Part shown: one piece after another, positions 1 through 59,212 of the stretch
How positions within the stretch are numbered: the stretch's first letter is position 1
Layout of the letters: every line of letters begins with the position of its first letter
DNA from: Eledone cirrhosa
Taxonomy: Eukaryota
Direction of reading: 5' to 3'
NCBI GenBank assembly: GCA_964016885.1
Contig: OZ024742.1
Span: 369,272,001 to 369,336,000, forward strand
Length of the DNA stretch: 64,000 nt
The notes under the pieces: model-generated
The model's input: only the letters and a program-made list of their open reading frames with translations
Databases searched by the model: none
Told to the model about the DNA's origin: nothing
Position numbers and translations under genes: made by a program

Positions 1-3000
1 TTAAGTTGTCTGATCTCCAGCTTCAGATGTCTGCTGTCCAGTTTCGGTTGTCTGGTGACCAGTTTAGTTTGTCTGATGTCCAGCTCAGTTTTCTCATCTC
101 CAGCCTCAGTTCGCTGATGTCCAGCTTCAGTTATCTGATGTCCAGCTCAGTAGACCGATCTCCAATTTCAGTTTTCTGGTGTCCAGTTTAGGTAGGCTGA
201 TGTCCAGCTCAGTTGTCTAATCTCCAGCTTCAGTTCTCTGATGTCCAGCTTCAGTTGTCTGATGTCCAGCTTCAGTTGTCTAATGTCAAGTTTAAGTTAT
301 CTGATCTCCAGCTTCATTTGTCTGATGTCCAGTTTCAGTTGTCTGATGTCCAGTTTAGGTTGTCCGATGTTCAGCTTCAGTTCTCTGATGTCCAGCTTCA
401 GTTGTCTGATCTCCAGCTTCAGTTGTCTGCTGTCCTGCTTCTGTTGTCTGATGTCCAGCTTCAGTTGTCTGATCTTCAATTTTAGTTGTCTGATGTCCAG
501 TTTAGGTTGTCTGTTGTACAGTTTAGGTTGTCTGATGACCAGCTTCAGTTGTCTGATCTCCAGTTTCAGTTGTCTGCTGTCCAGTTTAGGTTGTCTGATG
601 TCCAGCTCAATTTTCTGTTCTCCACCTTCAGTTGTCTGATGTCCAGTTTAGGTTGTCTGATGTCCAGCTCAGTTGTGTAATCTCCAGGTTCAGTTGTCTG
701 TTTTCCAGCTTCAGATATCTGATCTCCAGCTTCAGTTGTCTGCTGTCCAGCTCCAGATATCTGATGTCCAGTTTAGGTTGTCTGATGTACAGTTTAGGTT
801 GTCTGATGTCCAGTTTAGGTTGTCTGATGTCCAGCTTCAGTTGTCTGATTTCCAGCTTCAGTTGTCTGTTGTCCAGTTTATGTTTTTTGATGTCCAGCTT
901 CAGTTGTCTGATGTCCAGCTTCAGTTGTCTGATGTCCAGCTTCAGTTGTCTGATCTCCAGCTTCAGTTGTCTGATTTCCAGCTTCAGTTGTCTGATGTCC
1001 AGTTTAGGTTGTCTGATCTCCCGTTTAGGTTGTCTGATGTCCAGCCTCAGTTGTCTGCTGTCCAGCTTCAGTTGTCTAATGTCCAGTTTAAGTTGTCTGC
1101 TGTCCAGCTTCAGTTGTCTGATCTCCAGCTTCAGTTGTCTGCTGTCCAGCTTCAGTTGTCTGATGTCCAGTTTAGGTTGTCTGATGTACAATTTAGGTTG
1201 TGTGATGACCAGCTTCAGTTGTCTGATATCCAGCTCAGTTGTCTGATCTCCAGTTTCAGTTGTCTGGTATCCAGTTAAGATATTCGGATGTCCAGCTCAG
1301 TTTTCTGATGTCCAGCTCAGTTGTCTGATCTCTAGTTTCGGTTGTCTGGTCTCCATCTTTAGTTGTCTGATGTCCAGTTTAACTTGTCTGATGTCCAGCT
1401 ACCGTTGTCTGATGTCCAGCGTCAGCTGTGTGATGTCCAGATTAGGTTGTCTGCTGTCCAGCTTCAAATGTCTGATATCCCCCTTCAGTTGTCTGATCTC
1501 CAGCTTCAGTTGTCTGCTGTCCAGCTTCAGTTGTCTGATGTCCATTTTAGGTTGTCTGATGTCCAGCTTCAGTTGAATGATGTCCAGCTTCAGTTGTCTG
1601 ATGTCCAGCTTCAGTTGTCTAATGTACAGCTCAGTTGTCTGATCTCCAGGTTCAGATTCGGATGTCCAGATTAGGTTGTCTGATGTCCATCTTCAGTTGT
1701 CTGATCTCCAGCTTAAGTTGTCTGTGATCTCCAGCTTCAGATGTCTGCTGTCCAGTTTCGGTTGTCTGGTGACCAGTTTAGTTTGTCTGATGTCCAGCTC
1801 AGTTTTCTCATCTGCAGCCTCAGTTCGCTGATGTCCAGCTTCAGTTATCTAATGTCCAGCTCAGTAGCCCGATCTCCAATTTCAGTTTTCTGGTGTCCAG
1901 TTTAGGTAGTCTGATGTCCAGCTCAGTTGTCTAATCCCCAGCTTCAGTTCTCTGATGTCCAGCTTCAGTTGTCTATTGTCCAGTTTATGTTGTTTGATGT
2001 CCAGCTTCAGTTGTCTGATGTCCAGTTTCAGTTGTCTGATGTCCAGTTTAGGTTGTCCGATGTTCAGCTTCAGTTGTCTGATGTCCAGCTTTAGTTGTCT
2101 GATCTCCAGCGTCAGTTGTCTGCTGTCCTGCTTCTGTTGTCTGATGTCCAGCTTCAGTTGTCTGATCTCCAATTTTAGTTGTCTGATGTCCAGTTTAGGT
2201 TGTCTGTTGTACAGTTTAGTTTGTCTGATGACCAGCTCAGTTGTCTGATCTCCAGTTTCAGTTGTCTGCTGTCCAGTTTAGGTTGTCTGATGTCCAGCTC
2301 AATTGTCTGTTCTCCACCTTCAGTTGTCTGATGTCCAGTTTAGGTTGTCTGATGTCCAGCTCAGTTGTGTAATCTCCAGGTTCAGTTGTCTGTTTTCCAG
2401 CCTCAGATGTCTGATCTCCAGCTTCAGTTGTCTGCTGTCCAGCTCCAGATGTCTGATGTCCAGCTTCAGTTGTCTGATGTCCAGTTTAGGTTGTCTAATC
2501 TCCAGCTTCAGTTGTCTGATTCCAGTTTAGGTTGTCTGGTATCCAGTTAAGGTTGTCTGATGTCCAGCTCAGTTGTCTGATCTCCAGCTTCAGTTGTCTG
2601 ATGTCCAGCTTCAGTTGTCTGATGTCCAGCTCAGCTGTCTGATCTCCATCTTTAGTTGTCTGACGTCCAGTTTAGGTTGTCTGATGTCCAGCTTCCGTTG
2701 TCTGATGTCAAGTTTAGGTTCTCTGATGTTCAGCTTCAGTTGTTTGATGTTCAGCTTCAGTTGTCAGATCTCCAACTTAAGTTGTCTGATGTCCAGCTTC
2801 AGTTGTCTGATGTCCAGCTTCGGTTGTCTGATGTCCAGCTCAGTACTCTGATCTCCAATTTCAGTTGTCTGGTGTCCAGTTTAGGTTGTCTGATGTCCAG
2901 CTCAGTTGTCTGATCTCCAGCTTCAGTTGTCTGATGTCCAGTTTAGGTTGTCTGATGTCCAGCTCAGTTGTCTAATCTCCAGTTTCAGTTTTCTGATGTC

Positions 3001-6000
3001 CAGCTTCAGTTGTCTGATGTCCAGTTTAGGTTGTCTGATCTCCATCTTGTCTGACGTCCAGTTTAGGTTGTCTGATGTCCAGCTTCCGTTGTCTGATGTC
3101 CAGCTTCAGTTGTGTGATGTCCAGTTTAGGTTGTCTGCTGTCCAGCTTCAAATGTCTGATGTCCAGCTTCAGTTGTCTGATCTCCAGCTTCAGTTGTCTG
3201 CTGTCCAACTTCAGTTGTCTGATGTCCCGTTTAGGTTGTCTGATGTCCAGCTTCAGTTGTCTGATGTCCAGCTCAGTTTTCTGATCTCCAGCTTCAGTTG
3301 TCTGATGTCCAGCTCAGTTGTCTGATCTCCAGCTTCAGTTGTCTGCTGTCCAGCTTCAGTTGTCTGATCTCCAGCTTCAGTTGTCTGCTGTCCAGCTTCA
3401 GTTGTCTGATTTCCAGCTTCAGTTGTCTGATGTCCAGCTCAGTTGTCTGATCTCCAGCTTCAGTCGTCTGATGTCCAGTTTAGGTTGTCTAATCTCCAGC
3501 TTCAGTTGTCTGATTCCAGTTTAGGTTGTCTGGTATCCAGTTAAGGTTGTCTGATGTCCAGCTCAGTTGTCTGATCTCCAGCTTCAGTTGTCTGATGTCC
3601 AGCTTCAGTTGTCTGATCTCCAGCTTCAGTTGTCTGCTGTCCAGCTTCAGTTGTCTGATGTCCAGCTTCAGTTGTCTGATGTCCAGCTTCAGTTGTCTGA
3701 TCTCAAGCTTCAGTTGTCAGATTTCCAGCTTCAGTTGTCTGATGTCCAGTTTAGGTTGTCTGATCTCCCGTTTAGGTTGTCTGATGTCCAGCCTCAGTTG
3801 TCTAATGTCCAGTTTAGGTTGTCTGATAACCAGCTTCAGTTGTCTGATCTCCAGCTTCAGTTGTCTGCTGTCCAGCTTCAGTTGTCTGATCTCCAGCTTC
3901 AGTTGTCTGCTGTCCAGCTTCAGTTGTCTAATGTCCAGTTTAGGTTGTCTGATAACCAGCTTCAGTTGTCTGATCTCCAGCTTCAGTTGTCTGCTGTCCA
4001 GCTTCAGTTGTCTGATGTCCAGTTTAGGTTGTCTGATGTACAATTTAGGTTGTCTGATGACCAGCTTCAGTTGTCTGATATCCAGCTCAGTTGTCTGATC
4101 TCCAGTTTCGGTTGTCTGGTCTCCATCTTTAGTTGTCTGATGTCCAGTTTAATTTGTCTGATGTTCAGCTTCCGTTGTCTGCTGTCCAGCGTCAGCTGTG
4201 TGATGTCCAGTTTAGGTTGTCTGCTGTCCAGCTTCAAATGTCTGATGTCCACCTTCAGTTATCTGATCTCCAGCTTCAGTTGTCTGCTGTAGAGCTTCAG
4301 TTGTCTGATCTCCAGCTTCAGTTGTCTGCTGTCCAGCTTCAGTTGTCTGATGTTCATTTTAGGTTGTCTGATGTCCAGCTTCAGTTGAATGATGTCCAGC
4401 TTCAGTTGCCTGATGTCCAGCTTCAGTTGTCTAATGTACAGCTCAGTTGTCTGATCTCCAGGTTCAGATTCGGATGTCCAGATTAGGTTGTCTGATGTCC
4501 ATCTTCAGTTGTCTGATCTCCAGCTTAAGTTGTCTGATGTCCAGCTTCAGATGTCTGGTGTCCAGTTTCGGTTGTCTGGTGACCAGTTTAGTTTGTCTGA
4601 TGTCCAGCTCAGTTTTCTCATCTCCAGCCTCAGTTCGCTGATGTCCAGCTTCAGTTATCTGATGACCAGCTCAGTAGCCCCATCTCCAATTTCAGTTTTC
4701 TGGTGTCCAGTTTAGGTAGTCTGATGTCCTGCTCAGTTGTCTAATCTCCAGCTTCATCTCTCTGATGTCCAGCTTCAGTTGTCTGATGTCAAGTTTAAGT
4801 TGTCTGATCTCCAGCTTCAGTTGTCTGATGTCCAGTTTCAGTTGTCTGATGTCCAGTTTAGGTTGTCCGATGTTCAGCTTCAGTTGTCTGATGTCCAGCT
4901 TCAGTTGTCTGATCTCCAGCTTCAGTTGTCTGCTGTCCTGCTTCTGTTGTCTGATGTCCAGCTTCAGTTGTCTGATCTCCAATTTTAGTTGTCTGATGTC
5001 CAGTTTAGGTTGTCTGTTGTACAGTTTAGGTTGTCTGATGACCAGCTTCAGTTGTCTGATGTCCAGCTCAGTTGTCTGGTCTCCAGTTTCAGTTGTCTGC
5101 TGTCTAGTTTAAGTTGTCTGATGTCCAGCTCAATTGTCTGTTCTCCACCTTCAGTTGTCTGATGTCCAGTTTAGGTTGTCTGATGTCCAGCTCAGTTGTG
5201 TAATCTCCAGGTTCAGTTGTCTGTTTTCCAGCTTCAGATGTCTGATCTCCAGCTTCAGTTGTCTGCTGTCCAGCTCCAGATGTCTGATGTCCAGTTTAGG
5301 TTGTCTGATGTACAGTTTAGGTTGTCTGATGTCCAGTTTAGGTTGTCTGATGTCCAGCTTCAGTTGTCTGATTTCCAGCTTCAGTTGTCTGTTGTCCAGT
5401 TTAGGTTGTTTGATGTCCAGCTTCAGTTGTCTGATGTCCAGGTTCAGTTGTCTGATCTCCATCTTCAGTTGTCTGATGTCCAGTTTAGGTTGTCTTATGT
5501 CCAGCTCAGTTGTCTAATCTCCAGTTTCAGTTTTCTGATGTCCAGCTTCAGTTGTCTGATGTCCAGTTTAGGTTGTCTGATCTCCATCTTTAGTTGTCTC
5601 TATGTCCAGTTTAGGGTGTCTGATGTCCAACTTCGGTTGTCTGCTGTCCAGCTCCAGATGTCTGATGTCCAGTTTAGGTTGTCTGATGTACAGTTTAGGT
5701 TGTCTGATGGCCAGTTTAGGTTGTCTGATGTCCAGCTTCAGTTGTCTGATTTCCAGCTTCAGTTGTCTGTTGTCCAGTTTAGGTTATTTGATGTCCAGCT
5801 TCAGTTGTCTGATGTCCAGGTTCAGTTGTCTGATCTCCATCTTCAGTTGTCTGATGTCCAGTTTTGGTTGTCTTATGTCCAGCTCAGTTTTCTCATCTCC
5901 AGCTTCAGTTCGCTGATGTCCAGCTTCAGTTGTCTGATGTCCAGTTTAGTTTGTCTAATGTCCAGTTTATGTTGTCTGATGTTAAGCTTCAGTTGTCTGA

Positions 6001-7260
6001 TGTCCAGCTCAGTAGTCTGATCTCCAATTTCAGTTGTCTGGTGTCCAGTTTAGGTTGTCTGATGTCCAGCTCAGTTGTCTGATGTCCAGCTTCAGTTGTC
6101 TGATGTCCAGTTTAGGTTGTCTGATGTCCAGCTTCAGTAGTCTGATCTCCAGATTCAGTTGTCTGCTGTCCAGCTTCAGTTGTTTGATGTCCAGTTTAGG
6201 TTGTCTGATGTCCCGTTTAGGTTATCTGATGTCCAGCTTCAGTTGTCTGATGTCCAGCACAGTTGTCTGATCTCTAGCTTATTGTCTGATGTCCAGTTCA
6301 GTTGTCTGATCTCCAGCTTCAGTTGTCTGATGTCCAGTTTAGGTTGCCTAATGTCCAGCTTCAGTTGTCTGATGTCCAGCTTCAGTTGTCTGATGTCCAG
6401 CTTCAGTTGTCTGATGTCCAGCATCAGTTGTCAGATCTCCAGCTTCATTTGACTAATGTCCAGTTTAGTTTGTCTAATGTACAGTTTAGGTTGTCTGATG
6501 TCCAGCTTCAGTTGTCTGATGTCTAGCTTCAGTTGTCTGATGTCCAGCTCAGTAGTCTGATCTCCAATTTCAGTTGTCTGATGTCCAGTTTAGGTTGTCT
6601 GATTTCCAGCTTCAGTTGTCTGATGTCCAGCTTCAGTTGTCTGATCTCCAGCTTCAGTTGTCTGATGTCCAGCTTCAGTTGTCTGATGTCCTGCTTCAGT
6701 TGTCTGATGTCCAGCTTCAGTTGTCTGATCTCCAGCTTCATTTGTCTGCTGTCCAGCTTCAGTTGTCTGATGTCCAGCTTCAGTCGTCTGATGTCCAGTT
6801 TAGGTTGTCTGATATCCAGCTCAGGCGTCTGATCTCCAATTTCAGTTTTCTGGTGTCCAGTTTAGGTTGTCTGATGTCCAGTTTAGGTTGTCTGATGTCC
6901 AGTTCAGTTCTCTGATGTCCAGCTCAGTTGTCTGATCTCCAGCTTGTTGTCTGATGTCCAATTCAGGTTGTCTGATCTCCAGCTTCAGTTTTCTGATGTC
7001 CAGTTTAGGTTGTCTGATGTTCAGGTTCAGTTGTCTGATATCCAGCTTCAGTTGTCTGATGTCCAGTTTATGTTGTCTGATGTCGAGTTTCAGTCTTCTG
7101 ATGTCCACTTTAGGTGGTCTGATGTGCCGCTTCAGTTGTCTGATGTCCAGCTTCACTTGTCTGATTTCCAGTTTAGTTTGTCTGATGTCCAGCTTCAGTT
7201 GTCTGATCTCCAGCTTCGGTTGTCTGATGTCCAGCTTCAGTTGTCTGATGTTCAGTTTCT
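1..7260. repeat. 21-bp tandem satellite, consensus ~GTTGTCTGATGTCCAGCTTCA, with 20-bp (..CAGCTCA) and ..CAGTTTAG variants
   Basis: Continuous head-to-tail monomers; ORF track gives 7-aa periodic translations (LSDVQLQ / CLMSSFS / LKLDIRQ); runs off the left edge of the window. Confidence 0.97.
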
Positions 7261-45544: not shown

Positions 45545-45718
45545 ACATACACATACACATACACATACATATATAAAACATACATACATATACACATATA
45601 TATATATACATACATGTACTACATACATATATAAATACATACACACACATACATACATACATACATACATACATACATACATACATACATACATACATAC
45701 ATACATACATACATACAT
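45545..45718. repeat. (TACA)n microsatellite, first of several TACA tracts spanning 45545-50727
   Basis: Directly visible; further tracts at ~46188-46331, 46616-46653, 48083-48161, 48769-48869, 49477-49597, 50161-50420, 50704-50727. Confidence 0.95.
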
Positions 45719-46184
45719 GGTGGCTGCCAACTCGTTTTCGAGTACGGCCACTACTTTATATCCATGTAGGAGAACTCCTACCGAACGCTGAACGAGTGTA
45801 ACTTTTTAGTCCAGCCAGCGACTTGAAAACTCTGGTACAAACACTACACTTGTGACAATTATTGACACATAGTGCTGGGCCCATGGTTCCATGTGACGAC
45901 AAGTGCAGAGAGATCTCCAGATATAAAGCAATGCCTGGGCCGTGAAGCTTTTATAGTGAGCAAAGGCACAGCACAAAGCCAGTCCTACTCTCTTAACCAA
46001 GATGATATTTACCAAAAAGAAGAACAAGTCAACATCATTGGATACCATCAGGGTTGCAGGTGTTATATCAGAGTTTTCCTTCTCCTAGAATTCTGCCTTG
46101 ACAAAAGCTAAGGGGTCATCTCTCCTGGTGATTTTGGATGGCCATTGACTCTTAAGAGCTCCTTTGGCCTTTGACAGGTTTTTT

Positions 46185-46187
<3 letters not shown>
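45719..46187 (-). mobile_element. Non-coding ~607-bp retroelement, copy 1 (5'-truncated)
   Basis: Near-identical to 48162-48768 but lacks ~140 bp at the right end; flanked by (TACA)n on both sides. Confidence 0.75.
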
Positions 46188-46216
<29 letters not shown>

Positions 46217-46302
46217 CATAGATACATACATACATACATACATACATACATACATACATAGATACATACATACATACATACATACATACATACATACATA
46301 CA

Positions 46303-46335
<33 letters not shown>

Positions 46336-46337
46336 CC

Positions 46338-46581
46338 TTTCGATTGCAAGTTCAATTCTCAGACCGAGTGATGTGTTGTTTCCTTGAGCAAGACACTTTA
46401 TTTCACATTACTCCAGTTTACTCAGCTGTAGAAATGACATGATAGGGACTGGGGTCCCTATCATTCCACTGTAAAGTGGTCATGGAGGTGCCACGACAAA
46501 AAGCACCCAGCCCACACTGTAAATGAGGTTGGTGTTAGGAAGGGCATCTACCCTTGCAAGCAGGGAAAAAGCAGACGTAAA

Positions 46582-46616
<35 letters not shown>
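46338..46616 (+). mobile_element. Composite SINE: B-box-like remnant, CORE-like block, GGTTGGTGTTAGGAAGGGCATC block, RTE tail, (GAT)n
   Basis: GCAAGTTCAATTC; TCCTTGAGCAAGACACTTTATTTCAC; terminal CCCTTGCAAGCAGGGAAAAAGCAGACGTAAAATGATGATG shared with the RTE fragment at ~55811-55858. Confidence 0.7.
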
Positions 46617-46653
46617 ACATACATACATACATATATACATACATAGATACATA

Positions 46654-48082
46654 AACAGTGGCTCATAATGTGTTTGCTGTGCCTGTCATAACACCAACGT
46701 TTGGAATACTCAATTGGACGATAGACGAAATCCGAGCAGTTGATGTTGGAACTTGAGAAATACTGAACAACACCGGAAACTTCCACATCAACAGTGACAT
46801 AGACCACCTTTACTTGAAACATAAGCAGGGAGGCAGAGGACTAACATCAGTCCAGACAACATTTGAATGTCGCATCATATCTCTCCGACAACATCTACGA
46901 ACCTCGAAGCGTAGGAGCCCGTTTCTCGAGCAATTCTATCTGCATGAAACAGATAAGATCATGAGAGTTGGGAAGGAACTCCTTGAGAGATATTCCCTGT
47001 GTGATAATCAAAAACTCACACCCAGGGATGTCGCTCAGCAGTATCACAGTGAATCCATGAATGAAAAACTGCATGCCTATCAGCAAAAAATCATGCATGG
47101 ATATGTTGCCAGGAAACTCCAGAGTGAGAGTAATATAGATAAGGAAAGTAGTCTATCTTGGACCAACAACCTCTATATTGGCTCCCACTTTGAAGGATAC
47201 GCTTTTGCAATCCAGGAACAGGAGACTAGCACGAAATACCTGATTCACAAAAGAGATAGGGTTGCAGGCAAAACACCTAGATGTGATAACAAGTGCAGAC
47301 TCTGCAGAACTAACATCGAGGATATCACCCATGTCATCAGCAGCTGTCCAAAGATGTCATCGCGGTACTATCTACCTATGAGGCATGATATAGTGGCCAA
47401 AACACTGTACAATGCAGTTCGTAAAAAGGATAGCCCCGATAATAAACACATTAAAAGCTACAACAATATGGAAGACATCCATGTACATAATATGAAAGAG
47501 TACTGGTGGAATGTTCCAGTAAAAAACCCAATAAAATGAAGGCATAACAGACCAGATATTATGATATGGGACAGGGAGAAGAAAACATGCACAGTAGTGG
47601 AAATTAGTTGCCCAGCAGATGCCAATATAATATCAAAGATTAGTGAAAAGGAGAATATTTATGCAGAACTGATGAGAAATCTGCAGATACTCCACCCTGA
47701 TTACACCTTCAGATTTATGCCTGTGATTATTGGGGCACTGGGGTATGTTAGTAACTGCCTCAATACAAATCTTGAGAAGCTAGGCTTCACAGGAACAGAA
47801 AGAACACAACTACTTAGGAAATTACAAGTACAATTCATTAATGGAACAGTAAAAATTTGTAAAACATTCCAAACATTTTGCATCTAATAACTGCATATAC
47901 ACATGTACTGAAAACATCCACATCCACACATACAATAACATCCATATCTACACATGCATGCATACATACATATCTACCTAGTTGATGTTGTGTAAATTCC
48001 AATGAGAGAGTCTTGTGTCTATGTTAGAAACCGACTCTCTCTCTATTGGGAAAAAATTTGTGAAATTATAAAACCAGAAGAA
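46654..48082 (+). mobile_element. 5'-truncated R4/Dong-like non-LTR retrotransposon (RT C-terminal region, CCHC knuckle, restriction-like endonuclease), decayed
   Basis: AHNVFAVPVITPTFGILNWT..LYLKHKQGGRGL; CRLCRTNIEDITHVISSC; RHD; RHNRPDIMIWD..VVEISCP..KEN.Y; PVIIGALG; in-frame stops near 46755 and at 47537-47539; (TACA)n on both flanks. Confidence 0.9.
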
Positions 48083-48161
48083 CATACATACATACATACA
48101 TACATACATACATACATACATACATACATACATACATACATACATACATACATACATACAT

Positions 48162-48768
48162 GGTGGCTGCCAACTCGTTTTCGAGTACGGCCACTACTTT
48201 ATATCCATGTAGGAGAACCCCTACCGATGCGCTGAACGAGTGTGACTTTTTAGTCCAGCCAGCGACTTGAAAACTCTGGTACAAACACACACTTGTGACA
48301 ATTATTGACACATAGTGCTGGGCCCATGGTTCCATGTGACGACAAGTGCAGAGAGATCTCCAGATATAAAGCAATGCCTGGGCCGTGAAGCTTTTATAGT
48401 GAGCAAAGGCACAGCACAAAGCCAGTCCCACTCTCTTAACCAAGATGATATTTACCAAAAAGAAGAACAAGTCAACATCATTGGATACTACCAGGGTTGC
48501 AGGTGTTATATCAGAGTTTTCCTTCTCCTAGAATTCTGCCTTGACAAAGGCTAAGGGGGTCATCTCTCCCGGTGATTTTGGATGGCCATTGACTCTTAAG
48601 AGCTCCTTTGCCCTTTGACAGGTTTTGTTTTTAGTCCTGCAGGATGTCCAAAGTCACCCTCCTCACCAAGAATCCTTGGTGGGGTTGCTAGTTTAGTCGC
48701 CAATGACCCAACCATGGGACAGGTTGTACTGGGATACATGTTACCAGTAGCACCAACTAGTGACCTGA
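48162..48768 (-). mobile_element. Non-coding ~607-bp retroelement, copy 2 (longest form)
   Basis: GGTGGCTGCCAACTCG...TGACCTGA on + strand, bounded by (TACA)n; no credible ORF. Confidence 0.75.
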
Positions 48769-48869
48769 CATACATACATATATATACATACATACATACA
48801 TACATACATACATACATACATGCATACATACATATATATATACGTATATATATACATACATACATACAT

Positions 48870-49476
48870 GGTGGCTGCCAACTCGTTTTCGAGTACGGCC
48901 ACTACTTTATATCCATGTAGGAGAACCCCTACTGATGCGCTGAACGAGTGTGACTTTTTAGTCCAGCCAGCGACTTGAAAGCTCTGGTACAAACACTACA
49001 CTTGTGACAATTATTGACACATAGTGCTGGGCCCATGGTACCATGTGACGACAAATGCAGAGAGATCTCCAGATATAAAGCAATGCCTGTGCCGTGAAGC
49101 TTTTATAGTGAGCAAAGGCACTGCACAAAGCCAGTCCCACTCTCTTAACCAAGATGATATTTACCAAAAAGAAGAACAAGTCAACATCATTGGATACCAT
49201 CAGGGTTGCAGGTGTTATATCAGAGTTTTCCTTCTCCTAGAATTCTGCCTTGACAAAGGCTAAGGGGTCATCTCTCCCGGTGATTTTGGATGGCCATTGA
49301 TTCTTAAGAGCTCCTTTGCCTTTTGACAGGTTTTGTTTTTAGTCCTGCAGGATGTCCAAAGTCACCCTCCTCACCAAGAAACCTTGGTGGGGTTGCCAGT
49401 TTAGTCGCCAACGACCCGACCATGGGACAGGTTGTACTGGAATACATGTTACCAGTAGCACCAACTGGTGACCTGA
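48870..49476 (-). mobile_element. Non-coding ~607-bp retroelement, copy 3 (longest form)
   Basis: Same two ends as copy 2 with scattered substitutions; bounded by (TACA)n. Confidence 0.75.
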
Positions 49477-49597
49477 CATAGATACATATACATATATATA
49501 CATACATATACATACATACATATACATATATATACATACATACATATACACATATATACATACATACATACATATATATACATACATACATACATAT

Positions 49598-50159
49598 GGT
49601 GGCTGCCAACTCGTTTTCGAGTACGGCCACTACTTTATATCCATGTAGGAGAACCCCTACCGAAGCGCTGAACGAGTGTGACTTTTTAGTCCAGCCAGCG
49701 ACTTGAAAACTCTGGTACAAACACTACACTTGTGACAATTATTGACACATAGTGCTGGGGCCATGGTACCATGTGAGGACAAGTGCAGAGAGATCTCCAG
49801 ATATAAAGCAATGCCTGTGCCGTGAAGCTTTTATAGTGAGCAAAGGCACTGCACAAAGCCAGTCCCACTCTCTTAACCAAGATGATATTTACCAAAAAGA
49901 AGAACAAGTCAACATCATTGGATACCATCAGGGTTGCAGGTGTTATATCAGAGTTTTCCTTCTCCTAGAATTCTGCCTTGACAAAGGCTAAGGGGTCATC
50001 TCTCCCGGTGATTCTGGATGGCCATTGACTCTTAAGAGCTCCTTTGCCCTTTGACAGGTTTTGTTTTTAGTCCTGCAGGATGTCCAAAGTCACCCTCCTC
50101 ACCAAGAAACCTTGGTGGGGTTGCCAGTTTAGTCGCCAACGACCCGACCATGAGACAGG

Positions 50160-50160
<1 letters not shown>
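49598..50160 (-). mobile_element. Non-coding ~607-bp retroelement, copy 4 (5'-truncated by ~45 bp)
   Basis: Same left end as the other copies; right end stops at CATGAGACAGGT, followed by (ACAT)n. Confidence 0.75.
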
Positions 50161-50195
<35 letters not shown>

Positions 50196-50337
50196 TACAT
50201 ACATACATACATACATACATACATACATGCATGCATACATACACATACATACATACATATATACATACATTCATACGTACATACATGCATACATACATAC
50301 ATACATACATATATACATACATATATACATACATACA

Positions 50338-50371
<34 letters not shown>

Positions 50372-50419
50372 CATACATACATACATACATACATACATAC
50401 ATACATACATACATACATA

Positions 50420-50704
50420 CAAATCCAGTATCCAAGATACACCTTTAGCTTCATACCCATCATTATTGGAGCTACGGGTTATATACCAACCCGTTTGGAC
50501 CAAAGTATGACTGAACTTGGATTTGCAGACAAAGAGCGCAGCTCCCTAAACTATAGACTACAAATGGCTGCGATAGCTGGCACCTTCAAAATTTGCAAAA
50601 CATTCTTGCGATTCAAGGGATGACAATTTCTTTTCTTTTACAACCTTGCCACCAGGAAGGTGGCCGGTCAAAAAAATATACTCGAAATTAAGAGAAAGAG
50701 ATAA
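50420..50704 (+). mobile_element. Short 3' fragment of a second R4/Dong-like RLE LINE family
   Basis: QIQYPRYTFSFIPIIIGATGYIP..ELGF..LQ..IAGTFKICKTFLRFKG* aligns with the C-terminus of the 47561-47887 ORF; different 3' UTR; TACA flanks. Confidence 0.85.
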
Positions 50705-55513: not shown

Positions 55514-55856
55514 TCAATGTGCGTGAACAACTGAGCATGGATGTGTTGAGAGAGAAACTGTCTGAGAGGGATAAATTGTAGTGTGCAAGAGAGGAGACTG
55601 AGCTGGTATGGACATGTGATACGCATAGAGGATGACTGATGGGTGAAGAAGTGCCAAGAAATGCCAGTTGAAGGTAGACGCAGTAGAGGAAGACCACGAA
55701 AAACATGGGCGGAGGTGGTGAGAACAGACCTCAGATCGCTGAAGCTCACGGTGGAGGTGACGAAGGACCGTGACAAGTGGAGAGATGCTGTGCTGAATAG
55801 GACCCGTCCCACCCTTGCAAGCAGGGAAAAGCAGACGTAAAATGATGATGATGATG

Positions 55857-55858
<2 letters not shown>
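55514..55858 (+). mobile_element. 3' fragment of an RTE-clade LINE with (ATG)n tail
   Basis: VQERRLSWYGHVIRIEDD*WVKKC..VEGRRSRGRPRKTW..DRDKWRDAV is a typical RTE ORF C-terminus. Confidence 0.88.
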
Positions 55859-55927
<69 letters not shown>

Positions 55928-57519: not shown

Positions 57520-59212
57520 CAAAATTAGACAGAATTATCCCCCAAGTTAAGGTTAAAGTAGAAATTAAACTATGGGGTAACACTCATGAAGCAATAAGAT
57601 GGTTTAATAACATTACTGATAAGAAAAAAATCAAAATTTATTCAGTTTGATATTGATGAACATTATTCCTCAATTTCACCTGATACGCTACATGAAGCTC
57701 TTTCGTTCGCTAAGGCTAATTCCGACCTTACGGATGCTGAAATTAAAATTATTATGGAAGCGAGGAAAACTATAGTTAAATTCGATGATAGCTACTGGGT
57801 TCGCAAAGATAGACCTTCTAATTTTGATATTACTATGGGTTCTAATGATACGGCGGAAGTAACAGATCTTGTGGGAATTTATATCACCCACAGACTACAA
57901 GGAAAATTCAAGGATCTCCACGGTGGAATCTACCGTGATGATGCGCTCCTATTAGTTAAGCATATGAATAACCAGAATTTAGAAAGGATGCGTAAAAATA
58001 TCAGAAAGCTTTTTAAGGAACTAGGATTAAATATTACATTTGAATATAACCTCAAAGAGGTCAATTTCCTTGATGTTACTTTGAATCTCAATACAGACAC
58101 GATTAAACCGTTCCATAAACTAAATGAGAACCTTAAATATGTAAATACGAGTTCTAACCATCCACTCTCTATAATTAAATCCATCCCTAGAAATGTTTCT
58201 CTTAGAATCTCCCGCCTGTCGTCCAACCAACAAACCTTCAAAGAACATGCCGAATATTATGATGATGCACTTAGAAAAGCCGGACACCTAGATAATATAG
58301 AGTATATAGTCGAAGATCACCAAAACACCCAAAATAAATCCCATAGGAGTAGAAATAGCACAGAATCACCACCATACATACACTACCGCAATAGACACAA
58401 TAATAGTCGCACACCACCAAACAGAAGGCGATGTAAAGAGTATATTTGGTACAACCCGGTCTATAACAACTCTATTAAAACCAATCTACCCTCACAATTC
58501 TTTCGATTAGTTAAAAAACACTTTCCAACATCACATAAATATAATAAAATCTTAAACCCTAACACCATCCGACTTTCATATTCAACCGCCCCTAATATTG
58601 AACAACATATAAAAAAGCTTAACGCAAAACGGTTGTATAAACGCCTTCCAACTCATAACAATACACGTAAAACATTAGCTATAACATCACAAAACAACAA
58701 ACAACATCCTGTCCTACATAAGCAACCTCATCAACCCATCCATGACAATACAACAACGCAAAATTATAATTGCAACTGTGTCCAACCAGGAATGTGTCCG
58801 TTGAACAACCAGTGTCTTGAACGCAACATCGTATACAAATGTACTATCGAATCGGATAGACAGAAGTGGTACTATGTGGGATCTACAGCCACCTCCTTCA
58901 AATCACGCCTTTATAGACATCGTTACTCGATAAAACATGAAAACCAGCGTTATGTAACAACACTCGCAGACAAGGCTTGGCAGCTGCGTGAAAATAACCA
59001 ACAATTTCACCTTAAATGGGATATAATAGCGGCTGCCCCCCCCCCCCCCCACCTATTCCCACGGACAGGAATTTTGTAAATTATGTAATGTAGAATTATT
59101 TTGTATTATGAAATCCAAAAACATTTTATTAAATAACAGAATAGAGCGATCGTTATACTGTAACCATCGCTTAAAATCTACATTTTCATATTATAAATAC
59201 CACCAGGATTGA
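57520..59212 (+). pseudogene. PLE RT/GIY-YIG reading frame (ORF track 57754-59079), extended across two homopolymer frameshifts
   Basis: Upstream frame KLDRIIPQV..WGNTHEAIRWF joins via the A-run at ~57624-57630; downstream of C15 at 59036-59050 reads YSHGQEFCKLCNVE..LLNNRIE..CNHR..* (TGA 59210-59212). Confidence 0.85.

What the first reader, a model, noticed from the sequence alone, without database searches (positions are those of the whole stretch)
45719..50160. Unrecognised ~607-bp non-autonomous element: fixed 3' hairpin plus (ATGT)n, variable 5' truncation
Seen: four near-identical copies share one exact end (minus strand GTGGC-CGT-ACTCG-AAAA-CGAGT-TGGCA-GCCAC-C, then ATGTATGT, a stem-loop directly before the repeat). 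The other end stops at three different points. There is no credible ORF and no clear B-box. The internal CTAGGAGAAGGAAAACTCTGA recalls RTE 5'-UTR motifs (from memory, not a search). Inference: independent target-primed insertions of a bipartite LINE-derived element rather than a tandem duplication; its orientation is opposite to the neighbouring RLE LINEs, so its motor may be a different LINE.
Basis: partly seen in the sequence, partly recalled or inferred. Interest (0 to 1): 0.7.

Follow-up and report, generated by a model that had tools for sequence, protein, structure and literature searches.

The report
Orphan RTE retroposon bridging three LINEs
The repeat is a gutted 609-base copy of a now-broken jumping gene, present over 24,000 times in this genome, that is likely still copied by a sister jumping gene and whose front end has been taken over by a third, distant one: a known kind of element with an unusually well-preserved history.

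Summary
The unit is an internal-deletion derivative of a 4.07-kb RTE-clade LINE found in this genome ('B'): B's first 429 nt joined to its last 180 nt (zinc-finger codons, 3'UTR, stem-loop), 92-99% identical at both ends. There are at least 24,004 dispersed copies, half full-length, mostly in (AT)n/(ATGT)n tracts and clustering head-to-tail. It is a bipartite non-autonomous RTE (Bov-A/RTE-N kind), not a new class, and it is not driven by the neighbouring RLE LINEs. The four copies are not four independent insertions: c4+c3 arrived as one dimer (4 genomic sites), and c1/c2 share a variant set found nowhere else. Two twists lift it a little. (1) No intact or young B copy was found, yet a subfamily of near-identical copies exists; an intact sister RTE ('C', ~59% protein identity, 26/30 terminal nt, same target context) is the likely current motor. 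(2) A distant RTE ('A', ~29% identity) captured the element as its 5' end in 17 of 30 sampled copies, with the 589-nt intermediate preserved. Repbase/Dfam could not be checked. Verdict: new member of a known kind; interest 0.38.

The parts
48870..49478 (-). copy c3, full length (unit 1-609), youngest subfamily plus G178A; downstream unit of the dimer
49598..50160 (-). copy c4, 5'-truncated at unit 47; upstream unit of the dimer
49479..49597 (-). 119-nt (AT/ATGT)n spacer carried inside the dimer; identical at L001-L003, one change here
48162..48770 (-). copy c2, full length, 13 differences from the family majority
45719..46187 (-). copy c1, 5'-truncated at unit 140; shares 3 variants (unit 357, 389, 439) with c2
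49050..49478 (-). in c3: 5' part = nt 1-429 of parent RTE B's 483-nt 5'UTR, stopping 54 nt before B's likely ATG
48870..49049 (-). in c3: 3' part = last 180 nt of parent RTE B (end of ORF, stop, 3'UTR)
48935..49006 (-). in c3: remnant of B's third C2H2 zinc finger
48871..48902 (-). in c3: terminal stem-loop, likely the reverse-transcriptase docking site; shared in form with families B and C
49288..49477 (-). in c3: head region compatible with a large HDV-like fold (not proven)
45551..45718 (.). (ATGT)n/(ACAT)n tract, 3' flank of c1
46187..46332 (.). (ATGT)n tract, 5' flank of c1
48082..48161 (.). (ATGT)20 tract, 3' flank of c2
48771..48869 (.). (AT/ATGT)n tract between c3 and c2
50161..50421 (.). 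(ATGT)n tract, 5' flank of the dimer

Best explanation
The element is a non-coding, internally deleted copy of an RTE-type LINE (the parent's first 429 and last 180 bases) that sits in (AT)n/(ATGT)n tracts, is likely copied by target-primed reverse transcription using a borrowed RTE protein that docks on its 3' stem-loop, and likely now depends on the intact sister family C because its parent B appears dead. Shown: structure and parent, copy number, 5' truncation, target context, same-strand clustering, the c4-c3 dimer at four sites, and capture of the element as the 5' end of RTE family A. Inferred: transcription from, or self-cleavage at, its own head; docking on the stem-loop; that B drove the main burst and C drives the youngest copies; that the dimer came from read-through of one copy into the next; that c1/c2 share a gene-conversion tract.
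For: Parent: 8 of 10 fetched B regions carry unit 1-432 (91.9-99.1%) upstream of an EN-RT-3xZnF frame, and 10 of 10 end in unit 430-609; clean junction with 3,465 nt deleted. Dispersal and truncation: 24,004 exact ends; 15 of 30 unselected copies full-length, the rest start at 23-484. Target: 30 of 30 are followed by ATAT or ATGT; 5' flank microsatellite in 14 of 30 unselected and 25 of 26 young copies against 3.4% background. Ages match: copies lie a median 1.8% from majority (29 copies), B copies 3.8-4.1% from each other. B dead: 0 of 55 B-type rows have a stop-free frame of 1,160 aa or more, against 25 of 45 C-type rows; closest B pair 0.8% (433 pairs), whereas 40 of 40 scored element hits are 99.8-100% identical. 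C fits: 26/30 terminal nt, same fold, 23 of 23 ends followed by AT-repeat, 9 of 31 C ends within 2 kb of an element end, all 9 same strand, 0.48 expected. Family A does not fit as motor: unrelated 3' end (score 17 vs shuffle mean 17), 1 of 14 ends in AT-repeat.
Against: No activity was measured, and no RNA run was available. Only 98 of 123,176 first-look candidates were scored and 40 of 237, so a rare intact B copy (or one absent from this assembly) is not excluded. The youngest subfamily has no change toward C in its last 60 nt. Target-site duplications are mostly hidden in repeats: mean match 8.6 vs 5.1 permuted for unselected copies, but not above the permutation maximum for young copies. 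The 10 C copies examined were chosen for long frames.
Confidence: 0.8

Rival explanations
1. Same element, but the parent B itself still drives the youngest copies from a rare intact locus.
For: B shares the 3' end at 94-99%, better than C; the genome searches score only the best candidates.
Against: No stop-free long frame among 55 B-type rows and no young B clade among 30 copies, whereas an active master should leave near-identical daughters.
Confidence: 0.15
2. Four independent insertions at this site.
For: Different 5' ends; c1/c2, c3 and c4 fall in different parts of the tree.
Against: The c4-spacer-c3 junction occurs at 4 sites with matching diagnostic variants; the c1/c2 variant pair occurs twice, both here.
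Confidence: 0.03
3. A Pol III SINE with a small-RNA head and an RTE tail (Ceph-SINE-like).
For: Size, copy number and RTE-type tail.
Against: The head is B's own 5' end from base 1; no tRNA, Rfam or A/B-box hit; internal T4-T5 runs.
Confidence: 0.01
4. Local tandem duplication, or mobilisation by the neighbouring RLE LINEs.
For: Copies are adjacent and share the microsatellite with RLE fragments; c1 and c2 are related.
Against: Genome-wide dispersal; both ends trace to an RTE-type parent; B, C and A match nothing else in window 41,001-64,000.
Confidence: 0.01

Closest known systems
Bipartite non-autonomous RTE LINEs: Bov-A, RTESINE1/2, WALLSI3, MAR4_MD, RTE-N2_Lch (Kojima 2018, PMC5786205; parts 1-4 of 5 read)
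   Same: 5' end plus 3' end of an RTE parent, ORF deleted, no small-RNA head; RTE-N2_Lch is 214 + 70 bp of RTE-4_Lch.
   Different: Longer (429 + 180 nt), keeps zinc-finger codons, strong (AT)/(ATGT) context, parent apparently dead while the derivative continues, and head donated to another LINE.
Bov-A2 (dimer of Bov-A units; PMC5786205)
   Same: Two units moved as one.
   Different: Here the dimer is at only 4 sites and keeps a 119-nt microsatellite spacer: incipient, not a family.
5' UTR switching in Nicotiana SolRTE LINEs (bioRxiv 10.1101/2022.11.04.512097; abstract and section 12 read)
   Same: An RTE body acquires a non-homologous 5' end and founds a subfamily.
   Different: There the donors are other variants of the same subfamily or unknown; here the donor is an identified non-autonomous element of a ~29%-identical family, and the long intermediate survives.
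RTE-2_OV of Octopus vulgaris (PMC9115989; passages and section 8 read)
   Same: RTE with EN, RT and C2H2 finger and a microsatellite-rich 3'UTR, as in family C.
   Different: ORF 3,327 nt against 3,546 nt in C; no sequence available to compare (PMC13282606 also says none was reported). No non-autonomous derivative is described in what I read.
RTE tail-microsatellite and target-site coupling (PMC6007223, PMC2887409; abstracts only)
   Same: RTE-type tails are microsatellites linked to the insertion site.
   Different: Here both flanks are usually microsatellite, so copies pile up in the same tracts.
Large HDV-like ribozymes such as drz-Agam-2-1 (PMC4908430; part 1 of 4 read)
   Same: P1/P2/P3 pairings with a long structured J1/2 can be drawn from unit base 2.
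   Different: Long L3, extra bases before P1.1, weak P4, a U-U mismatch in P1; no covariation excess.

Membership tests
Bipartite non-autonomous RTE LINE | 5' part equals the 5' end of an autonomous RTE | tested here: met
   unit 1-432 matches B's 5' end in 8 of 10 fetched regions
Bipartite non-autonomous RTE LINE | 3' part equals the 3' end of the same RTE | tested here: met
   unit 430-609 ends 10 of 10 regions; 28 of 30 B loci match to within 2 nt of the end
Bipartite non-autonomous RTE LINE | parent encodes APE endonuclease and RT in one ORF | tested here: met
   PF03372 and PF00078 in L246, C2H2 fingers in L245; clade assignment rests on this layout and on similarity to families A and C, no reference tree was built
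Bipartite non-autonomous RTE LINE | no coding capacity and no small-RNA head | tested here: met
Bipartite non-autonomous RTE LINE | dispersed copies with fixed 3' end and variable 5' truncation | tested here: met
Bipartite non-autonomous RTE LINE | target-site duplications | tested here: inconclusive
   clear in L130 (12 nt) and L012 (9 nt); otherwise hidden in repeats
Pol III SINE (tRNA/5S/7SL head; Ceph-SINE) | small-RNA-derived head with A and B boxes | tested here: not met
A family already in Repbase/Dfam or the O. vulgaris library | sequence match to a named consensus | not testable with these tools
   no repeat library on hand; the PMC13282606 library is on Zenodo and was not seen
HDV-like ribozyme | nested double pseudoknot with covariation and catalytic C | tested here: inconclusive
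   89% of cells paired vs 27-51% slid, but 131-254 of 500 shuffles as high; strict descriptor (no positive control) and Rfam found none; C171 invariant in 9 rows
HDV-like ribozyme | self-cleavage in vitro | not testable with these tools
   needs an assay

The most novel reading that the evidence does not exclude
One short element links three LINE families: born from RTE B, it outlived B by switching to sister RTE C without changing its 3' end, and served as a portable 5' module (promoter and/or ribozyme) that RTE A captured to found a new subfamily, so non-autonomous elements act as go-betweens for LINE 5' switching; the G178A change may be what lets the dimer escape cleavage at its internal head.
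Probability: 0.5. Interest if true: 0.55.

Novelty: new member of a known kind. Interest (0 to 1): 0.38.

Why it matters
The class is known, so the finding itself is ordinary. Its value is as a clean natural test case. Where LINEs get new 5' ends is usually unresolved; here donor, recipient, long intermediate and deletion series all survive. How strict RTE proteins are about their partner's 3' end becomes testable with a pair differing at 4 of 30 nt. With at least 24,000 copies and a near-identical subfamily it is also a likely source of insertion polymorphism and of microsatellite-anchored repeat clusters in this genome.

Tried and rejected
Homology search with the 57-aa remnant among longer proteins: 2 candidates, none significant. 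A 654-aa open frame ending in the finger was a microsatellite read-through. Family A as parent or motor: shares only the head; rejected. Family C as direct parent: only 68% in the 5'UTR; rejected once B was found. Three exclusion-pattern searches for B gave 0, 1 and 21 hits, none B itself; B turned up beside one hit. My guess that the 638-nt form is ancestral was wrong: B matches the short junction. Horizontal transfer: 19 runs hold half the words or more, but of those laid X4 and X18 show 1-2 contigs at depth 3-6 and X23 0 reads in 1.9 Gb, which looks like trace carry-over and is no evidence either way. No RNA holder listed. Rfam, ARAGORN, Pol III boxes, hammerhead core, strict HDV descriptor: nothing. 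PDB search of the neighbouring RLE piece: nothing. Eight paper searches listed no description of this family; supplement files 5-8 of PMC9115989 were not searched. Look-ups of earlier findings by sequence, by words and near the window were empty.

Full report
Observation. The last 32 nt fold into a stem-loop (z -2.9). No tRNA, Rfam family or Pol III box was found. One frame of the 3' part reads as a C2H2 zinc finger (E 9e-5, under the Pfam cut-off). That the host is an octopod is my inference from recalled repeat motifs and from earlier scan notes; no call names it.

A large dispersed family. A DNA search gave 2,416 candidates; the 40 scored are all full-length at 99.8-100% on 10 contigs. The terminal 29-mer occurs 24,004 times, control 0. 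Of the first 30 places on contig C1, 15 are full-length and the rest start at 23-484; 29 copies of 400 nt or more from those loci lie a median 1.8% from their majority. All 30 are followed by ATAT or ATGT, and identical young copies split 13:13 between the two, so the tail follows the target. The 5' flank is also microsatellite in 14 of 30 unselected and 25 of 26 young copies, against 3.4% background. Copies cluster: 14 of 99 neighbour gaps are under 2 kb (0.87 expected), 13 of them same-strand, against 35 of 69 for distant pairs. The window's cluster is thus typical.

The parent. A 5'-inverted fragment beside one copy read three zinc fingers in frame into the element's 3' part. Its family, B, has 237 candidates. 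Of 10 regions fetched because RT similarity ran to the locus edge, 8 begin with unit 1-432 and all 10 end with unit 430-609; two are 5'-truncated. Full-length B is 4.07 kb with endonuclease, RT and C2H2 domains. The element is B nt 1-429 joined to the last 180 nt, stopping 54 nt short of the likely ATG. This is the bipartite non-autonomous RTE layout of Kojima 2018 (PMC5786205, parts 1-4 of 5 read).

Which motor. B copies differ by 3.8-4.1%, which matches the main burst; the closest of 433 pairs differ by 0.8%, and 0 of 55 B-type rows have a stop-free frame of 1,160 aa or more. Yet 40 of 40 scored full-length copies are 99.8-100% identical to c3 and 150 of 150 scored peptide hits are identical. 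Family C is a sister RTE (58-60% protein identity) with 25 of 45 rows open for 1,160 aa or more, 0.55% mean difference among ORFs chosen for length (9 of 10 measured) and 4,746 exact 3' ends. It shares 26 of 30 terminal nt and the fold; 23 of 23 ends run into AT-repeat; 9 of 31 ends lie within 2 kb of an element end, all same-strand, 0.48 expected. I infer that B drove the burst and C drives the youngest copies (about 0.7). Against: the searches score only top candidates, no activity was measured, and the young subfamily has no C-like change in its tail.

History of this site. The c4-spacer-c3 junction occurs at 4 places, on C3 (here), C4, C28 and C1233. The 119-nt spacer is identical at the other three, the diagnostic variants match (fully at two, partly at the third), the flanks differ, and the 5' ends vary (1, 1, 47, 55), so the pair was reverse-transcribed as one RNA. 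c1 and c2 group together (97/93), and the tested pair of their shared variants occurs only twice in the genome, both here. The three shared sites are consecutive among 16 differences (p about 0.025, post hoc), which favours two older insertions plus a conversion tract over a duplication. So three insertion events, not four. The RLE-type LINE fragments in between use the same tract in the opposite direction (motifs read by eye, zf-RVT E 0.008).

Head donated to a third LINE. Family A, a distant RTE (29-30% protein identity to B and C, tail GTCTGA, no finger), has 42 places with an exact 24-mer of its leader. Of 30 fetched, 17 carry the element as their 5' end (joined after unit 587-589 in 3, 299 in 1, 283 in 2, 276 in 11) and 13 carry the remains of a native leader. 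The long form crosses the 429/430 deletion junction, so the donor was the element and not B, and it keeps about 66 nt of native leader, so native is ancestral. On a tree of A bodies (26 of 30; 4 dropped as too short) the label needs one change, 0 of 500 shuffles as few, with weak branch support (63/82) but 18 separating columns: one capture, then deletions. These chimeras insert like A: 2 of 17 have a microsatellite 5' flank. 5' switching in RTEs is described in Nicotiana (section 12), without such a donor.

The head itself. Full-length copies start within a few bases of unit position 1-2 even in chimeras outside microsatellites, so the head sets its own 5' end, by promoter or by self-cleavage. 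Earlier scan notes suggested a large HDV-like fold for such leaders. I could draw P1, an extended P2 and P3 on 9 aligned heads: 89% of cells pair against 27-51% when slid, but covariation does not exceed shuffles. Inconclusive. The dimer's inner unit carries G178A, which would break one pair of that P2; that this lets dimers survive is a guess from a single source locus.

Verdict. A new member of a known kind, fully explained in origin. I found no description of this family in eight paper searches, but Repbase, Dfam, the library of PMC13282606 (parts 1-2 of 3 read) and supplement files 5-8 of PMC9115989 were not seen, and it may be catalogued there. The likely motor switch and the preserved 5' capture make it a useful test case rather than a surprise: interest 0.38.

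Noticed in passing
L163, L173, L183, L177, L179, L181, L166 and others (e.g. G000:C1:149199951-149202974): RTE family A subfamily whose native 5' leader was replaced by this element, with a preserved series of shorter heads (589, 299, 283, 276 nt).
   Followed up: yes
L116-L125 (e.g. L119:1170-5607): Very young intact RTE family C with three C-terminal C2H2 fingers and microsatellite-filled UTRs; upstream leader of variable length; resembles the description of RTE-2_OV.
   Followed up: partly
L073:1760-2135, L014:2650-3200, L103:3140-3640, L221, L236: At least two further non-autonomous sister families with homologous heads and a similar stem-loop end; one derives from family C.
   Followed up: partly
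L011, L017, L129, L131: A 636-638-nt subfamily of the element with a 29-nt insertion at the deletion junction that by eye gives a ~99-codon frame into the finger; probably chance.
   Followed up: partly
window 46657-48081 and 50422-50700 (+): Two 5'-truncated restriction-like-endonuclease LINE fragments (R4/Dong-like by eye, label recalled) ending in (ACAT)n, the same tract in opposite orientation.
   Followed up: partly
window 57598-59079 (+): 493-aa frame that looks by eye like a Penelope-type RT with a GIY-YIG-like end; Pfam gave no useful hit.
   Followed up: no
window 55540-55860 (+): 3' fragment of another RTE family ending in (GAT)n; its tail also appears at 46540-46616.
   Followed up: no
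window 4-7259 and 7577-40879: 7.3-kb array of a 21-nt unit and 33-kb array of a 40-nt unit (835 copies) with apparent higher-order structure.
   Followed up: no
L083, L132, L147, L067, L064: Frequent 5' inversions (twin-priming-like) in element, A and B copies.
   Followed up: no
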